Both the position numbers and the translations under genes were made by a program. Below are positions 1-7,407 of a stretch of DNA of 7,407 bases, one piece after another. The notes under the pieces were generated by a model. That model searched no databases. It was not told where the DNA came from and saw only the letters and a program-made list of their open reading frames with translations. The DNA comes from a virus (Duplodnaviria > Heunggongvirae > Uroviricota > Caudoviricetes). Each line of letters starts with the position of its first letter. Position 1 is the first letter of the stretch. The stretch lies in IMG/VR virus record IMGVR_UViG_3300028976_000046; one strand, written 5' to 3'.

Positions 1-318
1 ATGAAAAAGATAGCTGCTATATCATTAATTAGTGTTTTTCTTATGTCTGGGTGTGCTGTACATAATGATGAGACAAGTATCGGTAAATTTGGTCTTGCAT
101 ATAAAAGTAATATTCAGCGTAAACTCGATAACCAATACTACACCGAAGCCGAAGCTTCTTTAGCCAGGGGTAGAATATCTGGTGCAGAAAATATAGTAAA
201 AAATGATGCAGTTCATTTCTGTGTTACTCAGGGCAAAAAAATGCAGATAGTTGACCTGAAGACAGAAGGTGCAGGATTACATGGCGTCGCTCGTCTGACA
301 TTCAAATGTGGAGAGTGA
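1..318 (+). CDS. Small putative secreted protein or lipoprotein (105 aa), function unknown; AT-rich gene in the flank left of the att core
   Basis: ORF starts exactly at window position 1. N-terminus MKKIAAISLISVFLMSGC is a signal peptide with a lipobox-like LMSGC (Cys18). Low GC compared with the phage region. Its size (105 aa) and position would fit E. coli yegR beside the cyaR/P2 locI site, but that is synteny reasoning from memory, not sequence recognition. Confidence 0.55.
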   Translation: MKKIAAISLISVFLMSGCAVHNDETSIGKFGLAYKSNIQRKLDNQYYTEAEASLARGRISGAENIVKNDAVHFCVTQGKKMQIVDLKTEGAGLHGVARLTFKCGE

Positions 319-337
319 GAATAGATTCAAGACTACC

Positions 338-463
338 ATGCACATATTTATTTTATCTGTGATGGGATATTCTTCAACACCATTATTGAATGTGAGTAAT
401 AATGACAAACAGATAGATGAAACTAAAGCAGAATTTTTATTTTATGCAGCCATCAGAAAATGA
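338..463 (+). CDS. Possible micro-ORF (41 aa) with hydrophobic N-terminus, directly downstream of the lipoprotein gene
   Basis: ATG at 338 to TGA at 461-463 reads MHIFILSVMGYSSTPLLNVSNNDKQIDETKAEFLFYAAIRK. It is below the length cut-off of the supplied ORF track. No clear Shine-Dalgarno sequence, and the region is AT-rich, so a chance ORF is quite possible. Confidence 0.15.
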   Translation: MHIFILSVMGYSSTPLLNVSNNDKQIDETKAEFLFYAAIRK

Positions 464-646
464 TGTCAAAAATGTTCCAATGCTTTAGGTTCATTTTTTG
501 GTAAGCGTCAAACATGCGCGTTCTGGCTGTGCGTAACCGGAACCTGTGCGAGCACGATGTCGATAAGTGAAAAGCATCGTGCTATGAAGGAGGATTCTAT
601 CGATGTGGTCAATGGAAGACGGTGACCAGGGATAGGGCTTATGCAT

Positions 647-673
647 AAAAAATAAGCCCGTGTAAGGGAGATT
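647..673. other. attL: P2-type attachment core (27 bp), interpreted as the attL junction between host flank and prophage P' arm
   Basis: Sequence AAAAAATAAGCCCGTGTAAGGGAGATT equals the 27-bp P2 att core as I recall it. It lies about 80 bp beyond the 3' end of int, as in P2 where int is transcribed toward attP. On the minus strand it reads AATCTCCCTTACACGGGCTTATTTTTT, a short GC stem plus T-run identical to my recollection of the 3' end of the CyaR sRNA (the locI attB). Confidence 0.55.
647..673 (-). terminator. Probable intrinsic terminator for int, formed by the att core on the minus strand
   Basis: Minus-strand reading CCCUUACACGGG followed by CUUAUUUUUU: a short GC stem and U-run located downstream of the int stop at 753. 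Confidence 0.35.
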
Positions 674-752
674 TAGGGTGTCACCAGTAGGGGCTTTCAA
701 CGGTACAATGCGGGTTTGAGCGGCATAAATTACCACTGAAAGCCCTTAAACG

Positions 753-1762
753 TTACTCTACTGTGGACACTGTGTGGACACTCTCGGCCTCAGTACCACC
801 TCTTAGCGGATTAAGAGAAATGGCGTCCTGAAGGTACTCTGGCGCAAAATGAGCGTAAACCATAGTTTGCTCAATCCGCGTGTGACCTAGTATCCGTTGT
901 AGCGTGATAATACTTCCTCCATTAATCATGAAATGAGTGGCAAAGCTGTGCCTTAGTGCATGTGTGGCTTGCCCCATTGGCAAATCCGGTTTTATTGCTT
1001 TCATTGTTCGTCTGAAGCGAGGGTAATCAGCATCAGGGAATAAAAAACCTCGTTTGTTATCCGCGATCATTTTGGCAACAGCCTCTGAGATCGGGACGGT
1101 GCGTGGTTTGTTTTCGTTTTAACAAACGTGACGCGGTTATGGATGATATTTTCTGCTTTCAAACGAGCTGCTTCTCCCCAACGTGCTCCAGTACTCAGGC
1201 AAAGAATCGCAATCTTTTTGTTGTCGCCGTCAAGAGCAGCAAGCAGTAAGGCAATTTCTTCCTGCGTGAGATAGCCTGTGTCTGGTTTTTCCTCCTTAAG
1301 CCTTTTTGTCCCTCTGATAGGGTGCTCACCAAAGAATAACTCCGCTTCAATCAGGGCTGTAAACATGCCGCTAATACATGTTAAATCACGATTGATACTC
1401 GAAGGTTTAATACCCTGACTTCTTCGGGTGGCGCAGTACTGGCTGATAAGCGATTTCGTAATTTGAAATGCGCATGGGTTATTCGTTATTTTTGTGAAGA
1501 TTTCAATTTTTCCAAGATTAGATTTCCCATGCTCTTCGTGTTTACCCTTTAAATCCCACCAGATCTGTGTCAGCTCCGACAGACGTCGCTTGTCTGTTGG
1601 TTTTGATAGCCATTCTTTATTGTGGTGGTTGTACAACGTGTATTTCTCGAAAGCGACAGCTTCGCTTTTCTTATCAAACTTCCTACGGATGCGTTTTCCA
1701 TTACGTCCAGTAGGGCGGATGTCCACTTCATATCGACCATCATCGAGTTTTTTGATTGCCAT
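753..1762 (-). pseudogene. int: P2-type tyrosine integrase, disrupted by a frameshift and read as two ORFs (N-terminal part 1067-1762, C-terminal part 753-1070)
   Basis: The two adjacent minus-strand ORFs (231 aa and 105 aa) are in different frames and together give about 337 aa. The C-terminal part contains the catalytic-domain motifs HALRHSFATHF and LGHTRIEQTMVYAHF with the active-site Tyr. The frame change maps to the AAAACAAACC run (plus-strand GGTTTGTTTT, about 1104-1113). A sequencing error cannot be excluded. Confidence 0.8.
762..781. promoter_or_regulatory. Tandem direct repeats TGTGGACAC x2, candidate Int arm-type binding sites of the P' arm, overlapping the 3' end of int
   Basis: Copies at 762-770 and 773-781, 11 bp apart. 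TGTGGACA is the P2 Int arm-site consensus as I remember it. A second feature nearby is a 9-bp inverted pair GGGCTTTCA (691-699) and TGAAAGCCC (738-746). Confidence 0.4.
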
Positions 1763-1877
1763 CAGAAAACCCTCCGAGTGGTGTGTTTTTTTGCGACTAC
1801 TAATCGCTTTTTTCGTGGTGGCTGAAATTTAGCCACCAATAGTAGGCACTTGTGATGAATATATTCACGATGAATTG

Positions 1878-2177
1878 TTAACCAGTCTTTTGACCGGAGT
1901 GGGGCGACGTTGTTTCGTTTTGCCCAAAGTGTGCGAGAGCGGGCGCAATTTGCCCGGACTCAGGAGCGACCTGATTGGTCATGAACCATAAAGTGTATTT
2001 GGTGAATTGTGGGGTCTGCAGGATGTTCATCATGACATCTGTTGGAGGTGTTGAACGACCACTTTCATAGTAACTCAGCGTGCCATACGGAACCCCTGTT
2101 AAATCAGCAAGTTGTTGTCTGCTCAAATACTCTGATTTTCGCATTAAGACTATCTTCTCGCTTATCGTGTTTGACAT
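1878..2177 (-). CDS. C: Immunity repressor C (99 aa)
   Basis: 99-aa ORF divergent from cox, with an HTH segment (LSRQQLADLTGVPYGTLSYYESG). Length and sequence match my recollection of P2 C. Its start codon (2175-2177) overlaps the -35 of the early promoter. Confidence 0.85.
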   Translation of the reverse strand: MSNTISEKIVLMRKSEYLSRQQLADLTGVPYGTLSYYESGRSTPPTDVMMNILQTPQFTKYTLWFMTNQVAPESGQIAPALAHFGQNETTSPHSGQKTG

Positions 2178-2210
2178 GGTGTTTAGATCTCAATAGTATT
2201 TGGTTTAGAT
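2171..2210 (+). promoter_or_regulatory. Early promoter Pe with operator direct repeats O1/O2
   Basis: -35 TTGACA at 2171-2176, a 17-bp spacer, and -10 TAGTAT at 2194-2199. Two identical 8-mers GTTTAGAT at 2181-2188 and 2203-2210, 22 bp centre to centre, flank the -10, which is the P2 C-operator arrangement. Confidence 0.6.
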
Positions 2211-2240
2211 GTAGATTGTTTAGTGCTTGGATGTGGGCAC

Positions 2241-2270
2241 TAAAAGGCATTATAAGGCATTAAACGCAAT
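2241..2270 (-). promoter_or_regulatory. Candidate Pc (repressor promoter) -10 with three tandem 10-bp cox-box-like repeats
   Basis: Minus-strand TATAAT (plus coordinates 2249-2254), oriented toward C and convergent with Pe. Tandem units TAAAAGGCAT, TATAAGGCAT and TAAACGCAAT at 2241-2270; the third contains TTAAACGCA, fitting the recalled Cox-box consensus TTAAA(G/C)NCA. The -35 is weak. Confidence 0.4.
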
Positions 2271-2291
2271 TCATGAGGGCTGGGGGACGAC

Positions 2292-2567
2292 ATGAGCAAG
2301 CAAGTAACACTCATGACTGATGCGATTCCTTATCAGGAGTTCGCAAAACTAATAGGAAAATCGACAGGAGCGGTTCGTCGGATGATCGATAAAGGAAAGC
2401 TGCCTGTAATTGATATGACCGATCCACAATCAGCTTCAGGTCGTGCAGGTGAATATTGGGTATACCTTCCGGCATGGAATAACGGACTAAAACTGGCTTA
2501 TGAAAGCCGCCCTAAAGAGATTCGTGACGGCTGGTTGATGTGGTTAGGTCTCGGTGAACCACGTTAA
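2292..2567 (+). CDS. cox: Cox (91 aa): excisionase and repressor of Pc
   Basis: 91-aa ORF, first gene rightward from Pe, with a G-rich ribosome-binding site upstream. Sequence matches my recollection of P2 Cox. Confidence 0.85.
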   Translation: MSKQVTLMTDAIPYQEFAKLIGKSTGAVRRMIDKGKLPVIDMTDPQSASGRAGEYWVYLPAWNNGLKLAYESRPKEIRDGWLMWLGLGEPR

Positions 2568-2577
2568 GGAGAACCGT

Positions 2578-2748
2578 ATGAACGAGCCTCGTTGTATTGC
2601 TCAGTTATTGCGTAACGAAAGCCCCAGGGCGATTGACTTCACCATCACCCACGGTAAGGGGCGTAAGGGAATCATTATCCGCACCAAAAAACAGAGTCCG
2701 TTAAAGAAGGCTCTGACCTTTCTGAAAAGCCGGAGGGTCTGGAAATGA
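2578..2748 (+). CDS. Small early protein, P2 orf78-like (56 aa from the ATG; the ORF track extends it to a GTG at 2554)
   Basis: ATG at 2578 is preceded by AAGGAGA at 2565-2571. The stop overlaps the B start (ATGA). Position between cox and B matches P2 orf78. Confidence 0.55.
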   Translation: MNEPRCIAQLLRNESPRAIDFTITHGKGRKGIIIRTKKQSPLKKALTFLKSRRVWK

Positions 2749-3245
2749 CAGTGATGACGCTCAATCTCGTCGAAAAACAGCCAGCAGCTATGCGCCGGAT
2801 AATTGGCAAGCATCTTGCCGTCCCTCGCTGGCAGGAGACATGTGATTATTATAATCAGATGATGGAGCGCGAACGGCTAACGGTTTGCTTTCATGCGCAG
2901 TTAAAACAACGTCACGCAACGATGCGTTTTGAAGAAATGAACGACGTCGAACGTGAACGGCTGGTTTGTGCAATTGATGAACTGCGTGGGGCATTCTCAA
3001 AACGCCGTCAGGTCGGTGCAAGTGAGTATGCATATATTAGTTTTTTAACAGTCAGTCAGCGTCGTACTTTATTTATGCATGCGGGATTGACAGAAAAAGA
3101 ATTCAATCAGCCGTACTGGCGCATTAATGAAGAATCATGTTACTGGCGTGATGCTTTATTCCGTGCATTACGTGAATTGTTCAGCCTGTTTGAGTATGCA
3201 CCGACAATTCTGACATCGGTAAAACCAGAGCAATATCTGCATTAA
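2745..3245 (+). CDS. B: Replication protein B (166 aa), needed for lagging-strand synthesis and thought to act as a helicase loader
   Basis: 166-aa ORF translationally coupled to orf78; size and position as in P2 gene B. Confidence 0.75.
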   Translation: MTVMTLNLVEKQPAAMRRIIGKHLAVPRWQETCDYYNQMMERERLTVCFHAQLKQRHATMRFEEMNDVERERLVCAIDELRGAFSKRRQVGASEYAYISFLTVSQRRTLFMHAGLTEKEFNQPYWRINEESCYWRDALFRALRELFSLFEYAPTILTSVKPEQYLH

Positions 3246-3266
3246 GTAAGTAACCAGAGTTTCTAA

Positions 3267-3294
3267 CGCACTTAATTGTGCGGGGCTTCTTTTT
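3267..3294 (+). terminator. Weak hairpin plus T-run downstream of B (possible attenuator)
   Basis: CGCAC (3267-3271), loop TTAATT, GTGCG (3278-3282), then GGGCTTCTTTTTG. The stem is only 5 bp, so this is tentative. Confidence 0.25.
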
Positions 3295-3308
3295 GCCTGG
3301 AGAAAGTC

Positions 3309-3533
3309 ATGCATACAGTTTCTGAAAATCAGTGCGGTAAATACGCATTACTGCTGCAACAGACCAGAACCGAAGCACAGGCCGACGCGGCGACGCGCTT
3401 TTCTTCTCATCTTGACGCCATGATTCGCCACATCACAAAGGCGGAGTTATCCCGCGTGGAGATAGTCGAGCTGCTCAGTCAGGAGTCGGAAAAATTTCAC
3501 AATATCGGATTGTCTCGCGGGGAGGTACTTTGA
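3309..3533 (+). CDS. Small early protein, P2 orf80-like (74 aa from the ATG; track ORF begins at TTG 3276)
   Basis: ATG at 3309 preceded by GGAGAAA. Protein [17 protein letters not shown]... has no recognisable domain. Confidence 0.55.
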
Positions 3534-3832
3534 TGTCCTGTTCTCATTCAGTTGTATTACTGAATAACGCCTTAAAAATCGCCGTTATGGAAAATGGTGA
3601 TTTGTCTCTTATTCAACTTTGTCTTGATAAAGAAAAACGCGACATAACTGAATCTGTTATCGCGATTTATCAGAATGAATTAAACCTCCTGTCTGATGTG
3701 GTCAATTTACTTGTTAAACGCGCTGTATTCCACAAGCAAATTTCCTCCGTGGATGAACTGACAAAATTAACGACAGAACTTGCCAGTTATTGCGCTGATG
3801 TATCCAGGAAACTTAACGATAAAAGGAGCTGA
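3533..3832 (+). CDS. Small early protein, P2 orf81-like (99 aa), predicted helical, function unknown
   Basis: ATG at 3533 overlaps the orf80 stop (TGATG) and is preceded by GGGGAGG, indicating translational coupling. Confidence 0.55.
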   Translation: MSCSHSVVLLNNALKIAVMENGDLSLIQLCLDKEKRDITESVIAIYQNELNLLSDVVNLLVKRAVFHKQISSVDELTKLTTELASYCADVSRKLNDKRS

Positions 3833-3834
3833 TA

Positions 3835-4059
3835 ATGCCGGACAACGTAGATTTTATTCAGGAACAACAGGCTGAATTACTGGAGCGCCAGATTAACGCG
3901 GCAAGGGTAAAACATTGCGGTGCTTCTGCGCTGGTTTGCGAAGAGTGTGACGCGCCAATACCTGCTGCCCGTCGTGCGGCTTATCCGTCAGCCACGCGTT
4001 GTGTTTCCTGTCAGTCAGTCTTTGAAGCAAAAAACAAACATTACCGGAGAACGGCATGA
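3835..4059 (+). CDS. DksA/TraR-family C4 zinc-finger protein (74 aa), P2 orf82-like
   Basis: CxxC...CxxC arrangement (CEECDAPIPAARRAAYPSATRCVSCQ) near the C-terminus, typical of the TraR/DksA C4 zinc-finger family. AAGGAG ribosome-binding site upstream. Confidence 0.7.
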   Translation: MPDNVDFIQEQQAELLERQINAARVKHCGASALVCEECDAPIPAARRAAYPSATRCVSCQSVFEAKNKHYRRTA

Positions 4060-4331
4060 GTATTCGTATTGAAATTGGCGAACGTTATGTCGTTACCAGT
4101 GACAGCTTTCAGTTTATTCTCCACGAGAAAAAGAGAGCGGAAAGCGGTAAAAACGCCGGTCAGGAATGGCTGGCAGTGGTTGGTTATTACCCGAAATTAA
4201 GCCAGCTCGTTTCCGGCCTGATGCATCACGATATTCTGACCGGAAGCGCAAAGTCTTTCGCTGATTTAAACGCGCAGGTTGAGCAACTCAGCAGGCGTTG
4301 TTCAGAGGCTTTTGGCTCATATGGCCGTTAA
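4056..4331 (+). CDS. Small early protein, P2 orf83-like (91 aa), function unknown
   Basis: ATG overlaps the orf82 stop (ATGA). It is the last small ORF before gene A. Confidence 0.55.
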   Translation: MSIRIEIGERYVVTSDSFQFILHEKKRAESGKNAGQEWLAVVGYYPKLSQLVSGLMHHDILTGSAKSFADLNAQVEQLSRRCSEAFGSYGR

Positions 4332-4701
4332 AGCCTCCGGGCGTTTTGTCCCTCCGTCAGCATTTGCCGCAGGCACCGGTGAGACGTTTACCGGTGCTTA
4401 TGCATGGAATGCGCCACGCGAGGCCGTCGGGCGCGAAAGACCCCTTACACGTGACGAGATGCGTCAGGTGCAAGGTGTTTTATCCACGATTAATCGCCTG
4501 CCTTACTTTTTGCGCTCGCTGTTTACTTCACGCTATGACTACATCCGGCGCAATAAAAGCCCGGTGCACGGGTTTTATTTCCTCACATCCACTTTTCAGC
4601 GTCGTTTATGGCCGCGCATTGAGCGTGTGAATCAGCGCCATGAAATGAACACCGACGCGTCGTTGCTGTTTCTGGCAGAGCGTGACCATTATGCGCGTCT
4701 G
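4321..4701 (+). pseudogene. A: 5' fragment (about 127 codons) of rolling-circle replication initiator gene A, interrupted by an IS
   Basis: From MAVKASGRFVPPSAFAAGTG... to ...LLFLAERDHYARL the sequence agrees with my recollection of the P2 gpA N-terminus (761 aa in P2). After codon 127 the reading frame runs into the IS terminal repeat and stops at 4750-4752. Confidence 0.75.
4698..4701. repeat. Candidate 4-bp target-site duplication TCTG (left copy; right copy at 7281-7284)
   Basis: TCTG directly abuts both ends if the IS spans 4702-7280. A 4-bp duplication is known for IS21. With this model the A reading frame continues in phase across the insertion. Confidence 0.4.
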
Positions 4702-4773
4702 CGTATTTTCATGAAAGGAGATCACTCAATAACTTCCATCGAGATCGGGTAATAACATTTGAACAGATCGCTG

Positions 4774-4837
4774 AATAACATCGATGGAGATCACTTTTGA
4801 CTCATTTTGTTATTCAGTGATCTCCATCAATGTTATT
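4774..4837. repeat. Internal inverted pair of the terminal-repeat motif in the IS left end
   Basis: AATAACATCGATGGAGATCAC (4774-4794) and GTGATCTCCATCAATGTTATT (4817-4837) are inverted copies matching at 20 of 21 positions, separated by a 22-bp spacer, in the istA leader. Confidence 0.6.
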
Positions 4838-4892
4838 GGAACTTCACAGGTGTGTTGATCTGTATCTTTTGCCATTCCGGTAAAGGATACCT

Positions 4893-6434
4893 ATGCCAAC
4901 AGTTCCAATTTCTATGAGAAAACTTAAAGAAATTCTTAGGCTTAAATACGGTGTTGGACTCAGCCATCGACAAATTGGTCGTAGTCTTGCAATCTCCCCT
5001 TCCGTTGTATCCAGATATGCTAATCGGGCGGCTCAACTTGGCATAAAGCAGTGGCCCTTACCTACAGGATGGGATGATACAAAACTAAAACATGCGTTCC
5101 TTCAGACCCAGGTTAAGATGAAGAAGCACTCTCTGCCTGACTGGGCTACAGTACACCGGGAACTGCGTAATAAATGCGTGACGCTGCAGCTACTCTGGGA
5201 AGAATACTGTGAGCGTAATCCAGGCGGTTTTTACAGCTATAACCATTACTGCCGGATGTACCGTGAATGGCTCAAAACCACTTCACCATCAATGCGTCAG
5301 GTACATAAAGCTGGCGAAAAACTTTTCGTTGATTACTGTGGACCTACCGTTGGCGTTACCGACCCTGAGACCGGAGAAATAAGAACTGCTCAGGTCATCG
5401 TAGCTGTTCTCGGGGCATCAAGTTACACATGGGCAGAGGCCACCTGGTCTCAGCAGCTTGAAGACTGGGTGATGAGTCATGTTCGCTGCTTCCAGTGGTT
5501 GGGTGGCGTTCCTGAACTTGTTGTTCCGGACAATCTGAAAAGCGCCACATCCAGGGCATGTAAGTATGATCCTGACGTTAACCCTACCTACCAGCAGATG
5601 CTTGAGCATTATAATGTCGCAGTTTTGCCTGCGCGGCCACGTAAACCGAAAGATAAAGCCAAAGCTGAAGTTGGCGTTCAGGTTGTTGAACGCTGGATCA
5701 TGGCCCGAATCAGGCATGAGATCTTCTACAGCCTTGCATCGCTTAATCAGCGCATTCGGGAGTTGCTGGAAAGACTGAATAACAAAATAATGCAGAAGTT
5801 GGGTTATTCACGTGCAGAACTCTTCATCCAGCTTGATAAACCCGCACTGAAGCCTCTTCCTGAAGCCAGTTACAGTTACACCCTGGTGAAGAAAGTCAGA
5901 GTTCATGCCGATTACCACGTGGAAATCGACAAACATTACTACTCGGTTCCATGTTCGCTGTTAGGCCAGCAACTGGAAGCATGGATCTCCGGAGAACTGG
6001 TAAGACTCTTCAATCAGGGGCAGGAGGTTGCTGTGCACCCGCGCAAGCGTACTTATGGCTACAGTACCCGCAACGAGCACATGCCTGAAGCTCATCGACA
6101 GCATGCCACCTGGACGCCAGAGCGTCTTCTGGAATGGGCGGGGCACATAGGCAGTGAAACTCATAGTTATGTGCTTCATATACTGAACTCTCGTCCACAT
6201 CCGGAACAAAGCTATCGCTTCTGCCTTGGACTCCTGAACCTTCATAAAAAATACAGTAAAGCCAGACTTAATGCAGCATGTGCAAGAGCTCTGAAAACAA
6301 AGGTATGGCGTCTGTCAGGTATTAAATCGATCCTGGAAAAAGGTCTGGATAAACAACCTGTTCAGGATCCAAAACCAGATCTGTTATCCACGATGGAACA
6401 CGAAAACGTACGCGGCAGTGAGTATTACCACTGA
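4893..6434 (+). CDS. istA: IS21-family transposase IstA (513 aa)
   Basis: N-terminal HTH (LSHRQIGRSLAISPSVVSRYA), long catalytic region, immediately followed by istB. Ribosome-binding site AAAGGA upstream. Confidence 0.9.
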   Translation: MPTVPISMRKLKEILRLKYGVGLSHRQIGRSLAISPSVVSRYANRAAQLGIKQWPLPTGWDDTKLKHAFLQTQVKMKKHSLPDWATVHRELRNKCVTLQLLWEEYCERNPGGFYSYNHYCRMYREWLKTTSPSMRQVHKAGEKLFVDYCGPTVGVTDPETGEIRTAQVIVAVLGASSYTWAEATWSQQLEDWVMSHVRCFQWLGGVPELVVPDNLKSATSRACKYDPDVNPTYQQMLEHYNVAVLPARPRKPKDKAKAEVGVQVVERWIMARIRHEIFYSLASLNQRIRELLERLNNKIMQKLGYSRAELFIQLDKPALKPLPEASYSYTLVKKVRVHADYHVEIDKHYYSVPCSLLGQQLEAWISGELVRLFNQGQEVAVHPRKRTYGYSTRNEHMPEAHRQHATWTPERLLEWAGHIGSETHSYVLHILNSRPHPEQSYRFCLGLLNLHKKYSKARLNAACARALKTKVWRLSGIKSILEKGLDKQPVQDPKPDLLSTMEHENVRGSEYYH

Positions 6435-6445
6435 TACGGGATCCA

Positions 6446-7195
6446 ATGATGAATCATCTTTACGAACAACTGACCGCACTTAAACTCACCGGCTTCCGTG
6501 ATGCGCTTAAAAAGCAACTTGCTCAGCCGGGCACATACCAGGAGCTGGGCTTCGAAGAACGCCTGTCATTACTGACAGCAGAAGAACTAACCTGCCGTGA
6601 AAACAGGAAGGCAGAGCGTCTGATCAAACATGCACGGTTCAGACTTAATGCTGAGTTATCAAAGCTGGATTATCGTAACAATAGAGGGCTGGACAGGGCC
6701 CTCATCCGTTCACTCAGTCAGGGAAACTGGTTAACCCTGAAACAAAATATTTTACTGACCGGGGCCACCGGCAGCGGTAAAACGTTCCTGGCATGTGCAC
6801 TTGGTCATAATGCCTGCCGACAGGGATACAAGGTCTACTATTATCGCCTTAAAGCGCTGATGGAACAGTGCTATCAGGGGCATGCTGATGGAAGATACAG
6901 CAAACTTTTGACCAGGCTGAATAATAGCGATCTGCTGCTTCTGGATGACTGGGGGCTGGAACCTCTCTCATCAGAACAGCGTAGCGACCTGCTGGAAATA
7001 GTGGATCTGATGTACCAACGAGGCTCAATCATCGTAGTGAGCCAGTTGCCGGTGGAAAACTGGTACAAAATGATCGGAGACTCCACACATGCGGATGCCA
7101 TCCTAGATCGACTGGTTCATGGCAGTATCAAGATCGAACTTAAAGGAGAATCAATGCGGAAAATACAATCACCGTTGACCGAAGGAGATCAGTGA
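6446..7195 (+). CDS. istB: IS21-family ATP-binding helper protein IstB (249 aa)
   Basis: Walker A GATGSGKT and Walker B LLLLDDWG motifs; starts 11 bp after the istA stop. Confidence 0.9.
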   Translation: MMNHLYEQLTALKLTGFRDALKKQLAQPGTYQELGFEERLSLLTAEELTCRENRKAERLIKHARFRLNAELSKLDYRNNRGLDRALIRSLSQGNWLTLKQNILLTGATGSGKTFLACALGHNACRQGYKVYYYRLKALMEQCYQGHADGRYSKLLTRLNNSDLLLLDDWGLEPLSSEQRSDLLEIVDLMYQRGSIIVVSQLPVENWYKMIGDSTHADAILDRLVHGSIKIELKGESMRKIQSPLTEGDQ

Positions 7196-7231
7196 AGGTA
7201 ATTTAAAAACGGTTCTGTGAAAGTGACACGA

Positions 7232-7280
7232 ACCGATCTCCATCGATGTTACTCACCGATCTCCTTCACGGTAATACGCA
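7232..7280. repeat. Right terminal inverted repeat of the IS, with two GGAGATC-containing repeat units
   Basis: Its reverse complement aligns with 4700-4750 at about 37 of 49 positions. The inner unit GATCTCCATCGATGTT (7235-7250) is a perfect inverted match to AACATCGATGGAGATC at 4777-4792. Confidence 0.7.
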
Positions 7281-7284
7281 TCTG

Positions 7285-7407
7285 ATTACTGCTGCCCTGA
7301 TTATTGTCTGTTTTGTTGTTCTCCTGCTTATGCCTTTTCCGGGCGTCCCCCTGGCGGGGCGGGCTGTCGTGAACGGAGCCAGCGGAGCTGTCTCCGCCCT
7401 GGCGGGC
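7285..7407 (+). other. Open frame in the right flank, running off the window end; identity unresolved
   Basis: One frame is open to the end: LITAALIIVCFVVLLLMPFPGVPLAGRAVVNGASGAVSALAG, hydrophobic then Gly/Ala-rich. The other two plus frames have early stops. The region is GC-rich, and two minus-strand frames are also open, so coding status is uncertain. Confidence 0.25.

What the first reader, a model, noticed from the sequence alone, without database searches (positions are those of the whole stretch)
4720..4860. Dam sites (GATC) concentrated in the IS terminal repeats
Six GATC occur within 141 bp of the left end (4720, 4743, 4766, 4789, 4819, 4857) and three within 75 bp of the right end (7187, 7235, 7258), against roughly one expected per 256 bp. 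Most sit in a recurring GGAGATC unit that appears to be the core of the transposase-binding repeat. This raises the possibility that transposase binding or istA expression depends on methylation state, as is known for IS10 and IS50 but not, to my knowledge, for IS21-type elements.
Basis: seen in the sequence. Interest (0 to 1): 0.45.

Follow-up and report, generated by a model that had tools for sequence, protein, structure and literature searches.

The report
GATC inside ISEc12 transposase-binding repeats
The GATC cluster is real, but it exists because the known insertion sequence ISEc12 carries eight copies of a transposase-binding repeat whose core happens to read GATC; whether Dam methylation controls the element is untested and gets no special support from comparison with relatives.

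Summary
All nine GATC positions are correct. The element is ISEc12, an IS21-family insertion sequence at window 4700-7280. It is 99.8-100% identical to copies in 1911 of 5426 complete E. coli genomes. Eight of the nine GATCs sit at the same position of a 23-bp repeat: L1-L4 direct plus one inverted copy on the left, and R1-R2 direct plus one inverted copy on the right. This is the multiple-terminal-repeat layout already described for IS21-family ends.

In 32 distinct relatives from the same clade (IstA 55-93% identical) the GATC is kept in essentially every repeat. Sister clades keep the same register but read GAAC, GACC, GAGC, GTCC or GGCC, each equally invariant. GATC is therefore one version of a shared core (mostly GA-N-C), conserved by transposase recognition.

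GATC cores arose independently in ISSso4, in IS100/ISSen3 and in a group of marine MAG elements. Association with Dam-carrying host orders is not significant (lineage-level p = 0.59). No consensus promoter overlaps a GATC, and the coding body is not GATC-enriched.

By position, the GATC lies in the block that IstA's first HTH reads through the major groove. A Dam effect is therefore physically plausible but unproven.

The parts
4700..7280 (+). ISEc12, an IS21-family insertion sequence of 2581 bp with tips TGCGTATT...AATACGCA
   Evidence: Megablast matches with many different flanks begin and end at these bases. A 2581-bp Enterobacter contig (L001) has the same tips.
4708..4730 (+). Left repeat L1 (23 bp), core GATCAC at 4720-4725
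   Evidence: Register is shared by all relatives: 23-bp units start at nt 9 from the tip, with the core at unit positions 13-18.
4731..4753 (+). Left repeat L2, core GATCGG at 4743-4748
4754..4776 (+). Left repeat L3, core GATCGC at 4766-4771
4777..4799 (+). Left repeat L4, core GATCAC at 4789-4794, followed by the TTTT run that ends the direct array in nearly all relatives
4812..4834 (-). Inverted copy of the repeat (L5), GATC at 4819-4822. With L4 it forms a 22-nt, 95% complementary inverted repeat (4774-4795 / 4816-4837).
   Evidence: repeat I6. An inverted copy is present at the equivalent place in most relatives of every clade. As RNA it folds at -32.2 kcal/mol, z = -6.7.
4857..4860 (.). 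Sixth left-end GATC. It is not in a repeat. It lies in a block upstream of istA (about 4845-4870) that is conserved in the clade, but the GATC itself is shared only with the two closest relatives; more distant clade members mostly read TAAC here.
4893..6434 (+). istA, a 513-aa transposase: N-terminal HTH, rve catalytic core, Mu-transposase C-terminal domain
   Evidence: Pfam. Residues 107-391 align to IS5376 IstA structures 8b4h and 8q4d, E = 3e-13.
6446..7195 (+). istB, a 249-aa AAA+ helper ATPase
   Evidence: PF01695, E = 2e-67
7181..7195 (+). Inward-facing inverted copy of the repeat core at the right end (GAAGGAGATCAGTGA, GATC at 7187-7190). It overlaps the istB stop codon.
   Evidence: repeats I11, I12. 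The equivalent inverted core lies about 90 bp from the right tip in most relatives; the IS with three direct right-end repeats lack it there.
7228..7250 (-). Right repeat R2, core GATCGG, GATC at 7235-7238
7251..7273 (-). Right repeat R1, core GATCGG, GATC at 7258-7261

Best explanation
The GATC cluster is a by-product of how IS21-family ends are built.

ISEc12 carries an array of 23-bp repeats at each end. There are four direct copies plus one inverted copy on the left, and two direct copies plus one inverted copy on the right. These repeats are the binding sites of the IstA transposase. Each unit holds two conserved blocks, (A)ACAT and GATCAC.

The GATCAC block lies 21-26 nt from the tip. 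That is the same position as the CS2 block (TCCCCA) of IS5376, which the first HTH of IstA reads through the major groove in the cryo-EM structure.

An IstA tetramer would bind L1+L2 and R1+R2, synapse the ends and cut at the terminal CA. The extra copies (L3, L4 and the inverted copies) probably load additional IstA or regulate, but their role is unknown.

The four bases at the start of the block form a lineage-specific recognition code, mostly GA-N-C. It co-varies with the transposase, and ISEc12 and its clade use the T version, which reads GATC.

Shown: the repeat architecture, the register, the conservation and the clade-specific core. Inferred: IstA binding, HTH-1 contact and the tetramer model, all by homology to IS5376.

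In E. coli these sites will be Dam-methylated. Whether that matters for the element is open.
For: Identity to ISEc12 and exact boundaries. istA and istB domains.

Eight of the nine GATCs are at unit positions 13-16 of a 23-bp repeat.

The same register is seen across the loci whose ends could be located, in relatives down to 49% IstA identity (80 loci fetched). The core tetranucleotide is near-constant within each element and differs between clades: GATC, GAAC, GACC, GAGC, GTCC, GGCC.

In the ISEc12 clade, 32 distinct left ends have 3-6 GATC (median 5) and 24 right ends have 2-3. Spacing is 23 bp in 83 of 94 successive pairs.

PMC10122671 reports that IS21 TIRs are 23-bp direct repeats, that two complete repeats are required for integration, and that CS1 and CS2 are read by HTH-2 and HTH-1 in the major groove. 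The IS5376 TIR sequences place CS2 at nt 21-26.

The coding body is not GATC-enriched: codon shuffles give istA 7 observed vs 5.4 expected and istB 7 vs 6.5.
Against: No binding data exist for ISEc12 IstA. The N-terminal HTH matches Pfam HTH families only below their thresholds and does not align to IS5376 IstA by sequence. The CS2/HTH-1 assignment therefore rests on position alone.

The functions of L3, L4 and the inverted copies are not explained by the two-repeat tetramer model.
Confidence: 0.85

Rival explanations
1. Dam coupling (the reader's idea; it adds to the best explanation rather than excluding it). N6-methyladenine at the GATC cores changes IstA affinity. Fully methylated ends would be poor (or good) substrates, and transposition would be timed to the hemimethylated window behind the replication fork, as for IS10, IS50 and IS903.
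For: The GATC lies in a block that is read through the major groove in the homologous IS5376 complex, and the methyl groups project into that groove (position-based inference).

Every IstA site of ISEc12 carries a GATC.

The clade is found almost only in Enterobacterales, Aeromonadales and Alteromonadales. These are the orders of the 'Dam cohort' (PMC8826520, plus established knowledge).

GATC cores also occur in the enteric elements ISSso4, IS100 and ISSen3.
Against: Equal invariance of GAAC, GACC and GAGC in sister clades shows that conservation needs no Dam.

At lineage level, 3 of 10 lineages in Dam-cohort hosts have GATC cores against 1 of 8 elsewhere (p = 0.59). That is about the 1 in 4 expected if N in GA-N-C were free.

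Counter-examples exist both ways: ISAs29 (GAAC) in Aeromonas and Providencia, and a GATC-core group in Cellvibrionales and Oceanospirillales MAGs.

The left and right sites are in opposite orientation. In any hemimethylated daughter duplex the two ends therefore carry opposite hemimethylation states relative to the motif. This does not fit a simple 'one active hemimethylated form' model (inference).

No paper linking IS21-family elements to Dam was found.
Confidence: 0.3
2. SeqA sequestration. After replication the hemimethylated GATC arrays (5 in 103 bp on the left, a density like that of oriC) would bind SeqA. This would hide the ends from IstA or prolong their hemimethylated state.
For: GATC density is about one per 21 bp at 4720-4822. 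SeqA binds pairs of hemimethylated GATCs that lie roughly on the same helix face, and clusters permit sequestration with few molecules (PMC2691817).
Against: The 23-bp spacing is about 2.2 helical turns, so the sites are not cleanly in phase. That spacing is dictated by the IstA array and is identical in clades without GATC. No data bear on this.
Confidence: 0.1
3. Dam control of istA transcription. A GATC would overlap the istA promoter, as in IS10 pIN or the IS50 T1 promoter.
For: The sixth GATC (4857) lies 36 bp upstream of the istA start, in a block conserved in the clade. IS5376 TIRs are reported to contain -35 and -10 elements.
Against: No sigma-70 consensus match was found anywhere in 4650-4950 or 7100-7407. 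The 4857 GATC is shared only with two relatives that are at least 91% identical; more distant clade members mostly read TAAC there.
Confidence: 0.07
4. Chance clustering with no meaning.
For: The whole-window GATC count equals the chance expectation.
Against: P = 0.002 for the local cluster. Spacing is exactly 23 bp. The same sites are conserved in 32 distinct relatives.
Confidence: 0.01

Closest known systems
ISEc12 (IS21 family, ISfinder/NCBI name)
   Same: 99.8-100% nucleotide identity over 2581 bp, with the same tips, istA and istB.
   Different: Nothing in the element itself differs. This copy has no target-site duplication and joins two unrelated flanks.
IS5376 of Geobacillus stearothermophilus (IS21 family; IstA-TIR cryo-EM structures 8b4h, 8q4d)
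   Same: TG...CA tips. Direct repeats of 23 bp, each with two conserved blocks. The second block lies at nt 21-26 from the tip. The catalytic core is homologous, E = 3e-13.
   Different: IS5376 has two repeats per end with GC-rich blocks GCCG and TCCCCA and no GATC. ISEc12 has 4+1 and 2+1 copies, blocks ACAT and GATCAC, and a 513-aa IstA against 400 aa.
IS10, IS50 (Tn5) and IS903: Dam-regulated insertion sequences
   Same: A GATC inside a transposase-binding end sequence in a Dam-carrying host.
   Different: In IS10 and IS50 the GATCs are few and asymmetric (inner end only), they also overlap the transposase promoter, and dam dependence is shown experimentally (Roberts 1985 and Yin 1988, cited). 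ISEc12 belongs to a different family, has a GATC in every site at both ends, has no promoter overlap detected, and has no experimental data.
ISSso4, IS100 and ISSen3 (other IS21-family elements of enterics)
   Same: Their repeated end motifs also contain GATC: tcGATCAc in ISSso4 and tGATCCAC in IS100 and ISSen3.
   Different: These are separate lineages: IstA is 46% (ISSso4) and 23% (IS100) identical to ISEc12. Second blocks and spacings differ. Close relatives of the IS100 group (ISKpn7 and a Salinivibrio element) read GACC instead.
oriC / dnaA-promoter GATC clusters (SeqA sequestration sites)
   Same: Similar GATC density, about one per 21 bp.
   Different: The spacing is set by a transposase-site array, there is no replication function, and SeqA binding is untested.

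Membership tests
IS21 family (ISEc12) | Two consecutive genes: istA (DDE transposase with rve core) and istB (IstB_IS21 AAA+ helper) | tested here: met
   PF00665 plus PF22483 in istA. PF01695 (E = 2e-67) in istB. Catalytic core aligns to IS5376 IstA.
IS21 family (ISEc12) | Terminal inverted repeats ending 5'-TG...CA-3' and made of multiple direct repeats spaced 23 bp | tested here: met
   TGCGTATT...AATACGCA tips. L1-L4 and R1-R2 at exactly 23 bp. The feature is defined in PMC10122671.
IS21 family (ISEc12) | Near-identity to the reference element | tested here: met
   99.8-100% over the full length in thousands of records annotated as ISEc12.
IS21 family (ISEc12) | Short target-site duplication flanking the copy (5 bp reported for IS5376) | tested here: not met
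   The flanks are GCGTC and TCTGA. The left flank is P2-like gene A and the right flank is F-type plasmid DNA, and they are never contiguous elsewhere. This concerns the history of this copy, not the family assignment.
Dam-regulated insertion sequences (IS10 / IS50 type) | GATC within the transposase-binding sequence of an end | tested here: met
   GATC lies in the conserved core of all eight repeat copies. That these are IstA sites is inferred by homology.
Dam-regulated insertion sequences (IS10 / IS50 type) | GATC overlapping the -10 or -35 of the transposase promoter | tested here: not met
   No consensus promoter was found in either end. The scan is crude and the real promoter is unmapped.
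Dam-regulated insertion sequences (IS10 / IS50 type) | Transposition or transposase binding altered in dam- hosts or on hemimethylated DNA | not testable with these tools
   This needs genetics or biochemistry. No report was found in the searchable literature.
Dam-regulated insertion sequences (IS10 / IS50 type) | GATC-bearing ends preferentially found in Dam-carrying hosts (comparative expectation) | tested here: inconclusive
   3 of 10 lineages in Dam-cohort hosts against 1 of 8 elsewhere, Fisher p = 0.59. Host Dam status was taken from taxonomy, not checked gene by gene.
SeqA sequestration sites | Cluster of closely spaced GATCs on one helix face, bound by SeqA when hemimethylated | tested here: inconclusive
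   The density criterion is met (5 in 103 bp). The 23-bp spacing is about 2.2 turns. Binding is not testable.

The most novel reading that the evidence does not exclude
IS21-family elements whose IstA-site core reads GATC (the ISEc12 clade, ISSso4, IS100/ISSen3) sense the host's Dam methylation state at every transposase-binding site of both ends. Transposition, or the replicon fusion typical of this family, would then be gated by replication through hemimethylation and possibly SeqA occupancy. This would be a multi-site form of Dam control in a family where none has been described. It would also bear on IS100-driven genome rearrangement in Yersinia pestis.
Probability: 0.25. Interest if true: 0.55.

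Novelty: already known. Interest (0 to 1): 0.3.

Why it matters
As it stands, the finding shows that a striking local GATC excess is the footprint of a repeated transposase-binding motif in a catalogued, very common E. coli insertion sequence.

Two things go a little beyond the catalogue.

- The first four bases of the second conserved block in the IstA site behave as a clade-specific code (mostly GA-N-C, with all four bases used at N). This offers a natural series for working out how the IstA HTH reads DNA.
- GATC versions of that code recur in several enteric IS21-family elements, including IS100. Because the block is read in the major groove in the solved homologue, a Dam effect is cheap to test with dam- hosts and methylated oligonucleotides.

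If a Dam effect were found, it would extend replication-coupled control of transposition to a family that drives plasmid-chromosome fusions.

Tried and rejected
- Promoter scan of both ends for a GATC-overlapping promoter: none found.
- General GATC enrichment of the IS body, which might have pointed to wider Dam or SeqA selection: none once codon and amino-acid content are fixed. One shuffle script timed out first.
- Literature searches for IS21 or IS100 together with Dam or GATC: nothing relevant.
- Host association of GATC cores: the raw counts look strong, but they collapse to three or four independent lineages and are not significant.
- Search for a clade-1 copy in a host lacking Dam, since ISPsy14 of Pseudomonas is the name NCBI gives to some relatives: none found among plasmids, so this counter-test stays open.
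- Sequence alignment of the IstA N-terminus to the solved IS5376 IstA, to name the contact residues: only the catalytic core aligns.
- An earlier idea that one IstA site is GATCAC plus the downstream AATAAC was dropped. Comparison with the IS5376 TIR supports the ACAT-N6-GATCAC register instead.
- Search for the uninterrupted target, to define a target duplication: the two flanks are unrelated.

Full report
**1. The observation**

A search for GATC finds 29 sites in the window. The whole-window count matches chance (28.2 expected), but the distribution does not.
- Six sites within 141 bp was reached in only 0.2% of 5000 dinucleotide-preserving shuffles.
- GATC is the only 4-bp palindrome enriched in the ends.
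- The first four sites are spaced exactly 23 bp apart, as are 7235 and 7258.

The sites are copies of one motif, not independent events.

**2. What the element is**

The ORFs at 4893-6434 and 6446-7195 encode two proteins:
- a 513-aa transposase with an rve core and a Mu-transposase C-terminal domain;
- a 249-aa IstB_IS21 ATPase.

Megablast of 4690-7290 finds 99.8-100% identical copies annotated as ISEc12 in 1911 of 5426 complete E. coli genomes and on 994 plasmids. With many different flanks, the matches begin at 4700 and end at 7280. The element is therefore ISEc12: 2581 bp, tips TGCGTATT...AATACGCA.

**3. Anatomy of the ends**

Counting from the left tip, 23-bp units start at nt 9.
- L1 4708-4730, L2 4731-4753, L3 4754-4776, L4 4777-4799. 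Each has GATC at unit positions 13-16.
- An inverted copy lies at 4812-4834 (GATC at 4819). With L4 it forms a 22-nt, 95% complementary inverted repeat. As RNA this would fold at -32.2 kcal/mol, z = -6.7.
- On the right, R1 (7251-7273) and R2 (7228-7250) are direct copies.
- An inward-facing inverted core (7181-7195, GATC at 7187) overlaps the istB stop codon.

Eight of the nine GATCs are therefore the same position of one repeated unit. The ninth (4857) is not in a repeat.

This is the layout known for the family. PMC10122671 describes IS21-family TIRs as 23-bp direct repeats (L1-L2, R1-R2) and shows that two complete repeats are needed for integration. It also shows that each repeat has two conserved blocks, CS1 and CS2, read in the major groove by HTH-2 and HTH-1 of IstA.

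The IS5376 TIR given in that paper's supplement places CS2 (TCCCCA) at nt 21-26 from the tip. That is exactly where ISEc12 has GATCAC. Two further points bear on homology:
- ISEc12 IstA residues 107-391 align to the solved IS5376 IstA, E = 3e-13.
- Its residues 10-50 give only sub-threshold HTH matches.

Placing the GATC in the HTH-1 contact block is therefore an inference from position and homology, not a demonstrated contact.

**4. Relatives**

An alignment of 16 IstA homologues was used to fetch 80 loci from one genome per species, with IstA 49-93% identical. Across these loci, wherever the tips could be located, the ends share one plan:
- the tip TGCRTATT;
- the 23-bp register;
- usually four direct left repeats, the last followed by TTTT;
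- in most elements, one to three inverted copies before istA;
- usually two direct right repeats, three in some;
- in most elements, an inverted core about 90 bp inside the right tip.

Within each element the tetranucleotide at unit positions 13-16 is almost always the same in every repeat, but it differs between clades: GATC, GAAC, GACC, GAGC, GTCC, GGCC.

On an IstA neighbour-joining tree, the ISEc12 clade is monophyletic and entirely GATC. Within that clade:
- 32 distinct left ends carry 3-6 GATC in the first 125 bp (median 5);
- 24 right ends carry 2-3 in the first 100 bp;
- spacing is 23 bp in 83 of 94 successive pairs;
- the three bases before GATC vary between elements (GCC 52, CGC 17, TTT 14, GGA 13);
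- AC follows GATC in 121 of 173 sites.

The conserved core is therefore GATC(AC).

**5. Does conservation point to Dam?**

The comparison also removes most of the force of that conservation, for three reasons.

First, GAAC, GACC and GAGC are just as invariant in their own clades. Recognition by a co-evolving transposase is enough to explain it.

Second, GATC cores arose more than once:
- in a second group nested among GAAC elements (Halieaceae, Spongiibacteraceae, Motiliproteus and unclassified MAGs);
- in ISSso4 of E. coli and E. albertii (IstA 46% identical; sister to a GGCC element);
- in the very distant IS100/ISSen3 lineage (tGATCCAC; IstA 23% identical to ISEc12; IS100 and ISSen3 are 85% identical to each other).

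Meanwhile ISKpn7 and a Salinivibrio element read GACC, ISAs29 in Aeromonas and Providencia reads GAAC, and IS21 itself and ISEc10 have no GATC in their ends.

Third, the host association is weak. Hosts of the ISEc12 clade are almost all Enterobacterales, Aeromonadales and Alteromonadales. These are the orders that carry the Dam/SeqA/MutH 'cohort' (PMC8826520, plus established knowledge). But this is a single phylogenetic event. Counting lineages, 3 of 10 in such hosts have GATC cores against 1 of 8 elsewhere, Fisher p = 0.59. That is close to the 1 in 4 expected if the third base of GA-N-C were free. Host Dam status was taken from taxonomy and not verified gene by gene.

**6. Other tests of the Dam idea**

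- No sigma-70 consensus promoter is found in either end, so nothing resembles the IS10 pIN or IS50 T1 arrangement.
- The 4857 GATC is shared only with two relatives that are at least 91% identical. More distant members of the clade mostly read TAAC at that place.
- The coding body is not GATC-enriched once amino-acid and codon content are fixed: istA 7 observed vs 5.4 expected, istB 7 vs 6.5.
- Left and right sites are in opposite orientation. A hemimethylated daughter duplex therefore presents opposite hemimethylation states at the two ends, which fits poorly with a simple 'one active form' model (inference).
- No paper connecting IS21-family elements with Dam was found in the searchable library.

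On the other side, the methyl groups of GATC lie in the major groove, and the block is a major-groove contact in the homologue. ISEc12 clearly thrives in a host that methylates these sites. IstA must therefore either tolerate methylation or exploit its transient absence.

**7. Verdict**

What is there is the known multiple-terminal-repeat array of a known, abundant insertion sequence. The GATC excess is the T version of a core shared across this group (mostly GA-N-C), repeated eight times.

The Dam-dependence hypothesis is physically plausible and easy to test, but the comparative data neither support nor refute it. I put it at about 0.25-0.3.

Novelty: already known as a feature. The Dam angle is an untested hypothesis.

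**8. Seen in passing**

- This copy lacks a target duplication. It joins the 5' part of a P2-like replication-endonuclease gene (intact in E. coli S88) to F-type plasmid DNA. This suggests a replicon fusion or recombination between two ISEc12 copies.
- The prophage part of the window is GATC-poor: 6 sites against 16-18 expected.

Noticed in passing
window 4321-4699 and 7281-7407: The IS has no target-site duplication (flanks GCGTC / TCTGA) and joins unrelated DNA. On the left is the first ~380 nt of a P2-like replication endonuclease gene (gene A), which is intact in the same prophage of E. coli S88. On the right is DNA found on 3390 mostly conjugative F-type plasmid records. No E. coli genome has the two flanks adjacent. 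This looks like an ISEc12-mediated replicon fusion or recombination between two copies. An assembly chimera is not excluded.
   Followed up: partly
window 1-4699: The P2-like prophage part is GATC-poor: 6 sites against 16-18 expected from composition or a second-order Markov model (Poisson P about 0.001-0.004). The adjacent IS has 23 in 2581 bp.
   Followed up: partly
window 4774-4837, and 7181-7195 with 7253-7267: Each end carries an inward-facing inverted copy of the IstA-site core beyond the direct array. On the left it makes a near-perfect 22-nt palindrome with L4 (RNA fold -32.2 kcal/mol, z = -6.7). On the right it overlaps the istB stop codon. Both are present at equivalent places in most relatives of every clade, whatever the core sequence. 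The two-repeat tetramer model does not explain their role; an operator, decoy or read-through barrier are possibilities.
   Followed up: partly
L083/L084 (ISSso4), L092 (IS100, Y. pestis pPCP), L089 (ISSen3), L091 (ISKpn7): Other enteric IS21-family elements also have GATC in their repeated end motifs: ISSso4 has 5 left and 3 right copies of tcGATCAc, and IS100 and ISSen3 have tGATCCAC at L1, L2, R1 and R2. ISKpn7 mixes TGACCCAC (three copies) with TGATCCAC (one copy).
   Followed up: partly
L001-L087, left and right ends: The tetranucleotide at unit positions 13-16 of the 23-bp repeat is almost always constant within an element and switches between IstA clades: GATC, GAAC, GACC, GAGC, GTCC, GGCC. 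At least one switch occurs inside a clade, where L058 (GAAC) is nested among GATC elements. This is a natural series for the IstA HTH recognition code.
   Followed up: partly
window 4845-4870: A block upstream of istA (CACAGGTGTGTTGATCTGTATC here; GTAGGTGTGTTTAACCGTTAT in many relatives of the ISEc12 clade) is conserved across much of the clade. It may be part of the istA promoter, operator or leader. The sixth GATC lies in it but is not itself conserved.
   Followed up: no
window 491-1762 (- strand): The phage integrase reading frame is broken into several ORFs; the 231-aa piece has the Int N-terminal domain and only the start of the catalytic domain. The S88 copy of the same prophage is annotated as a frameshifted integrase. 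The prophage is probably defective.
   Followed up: no
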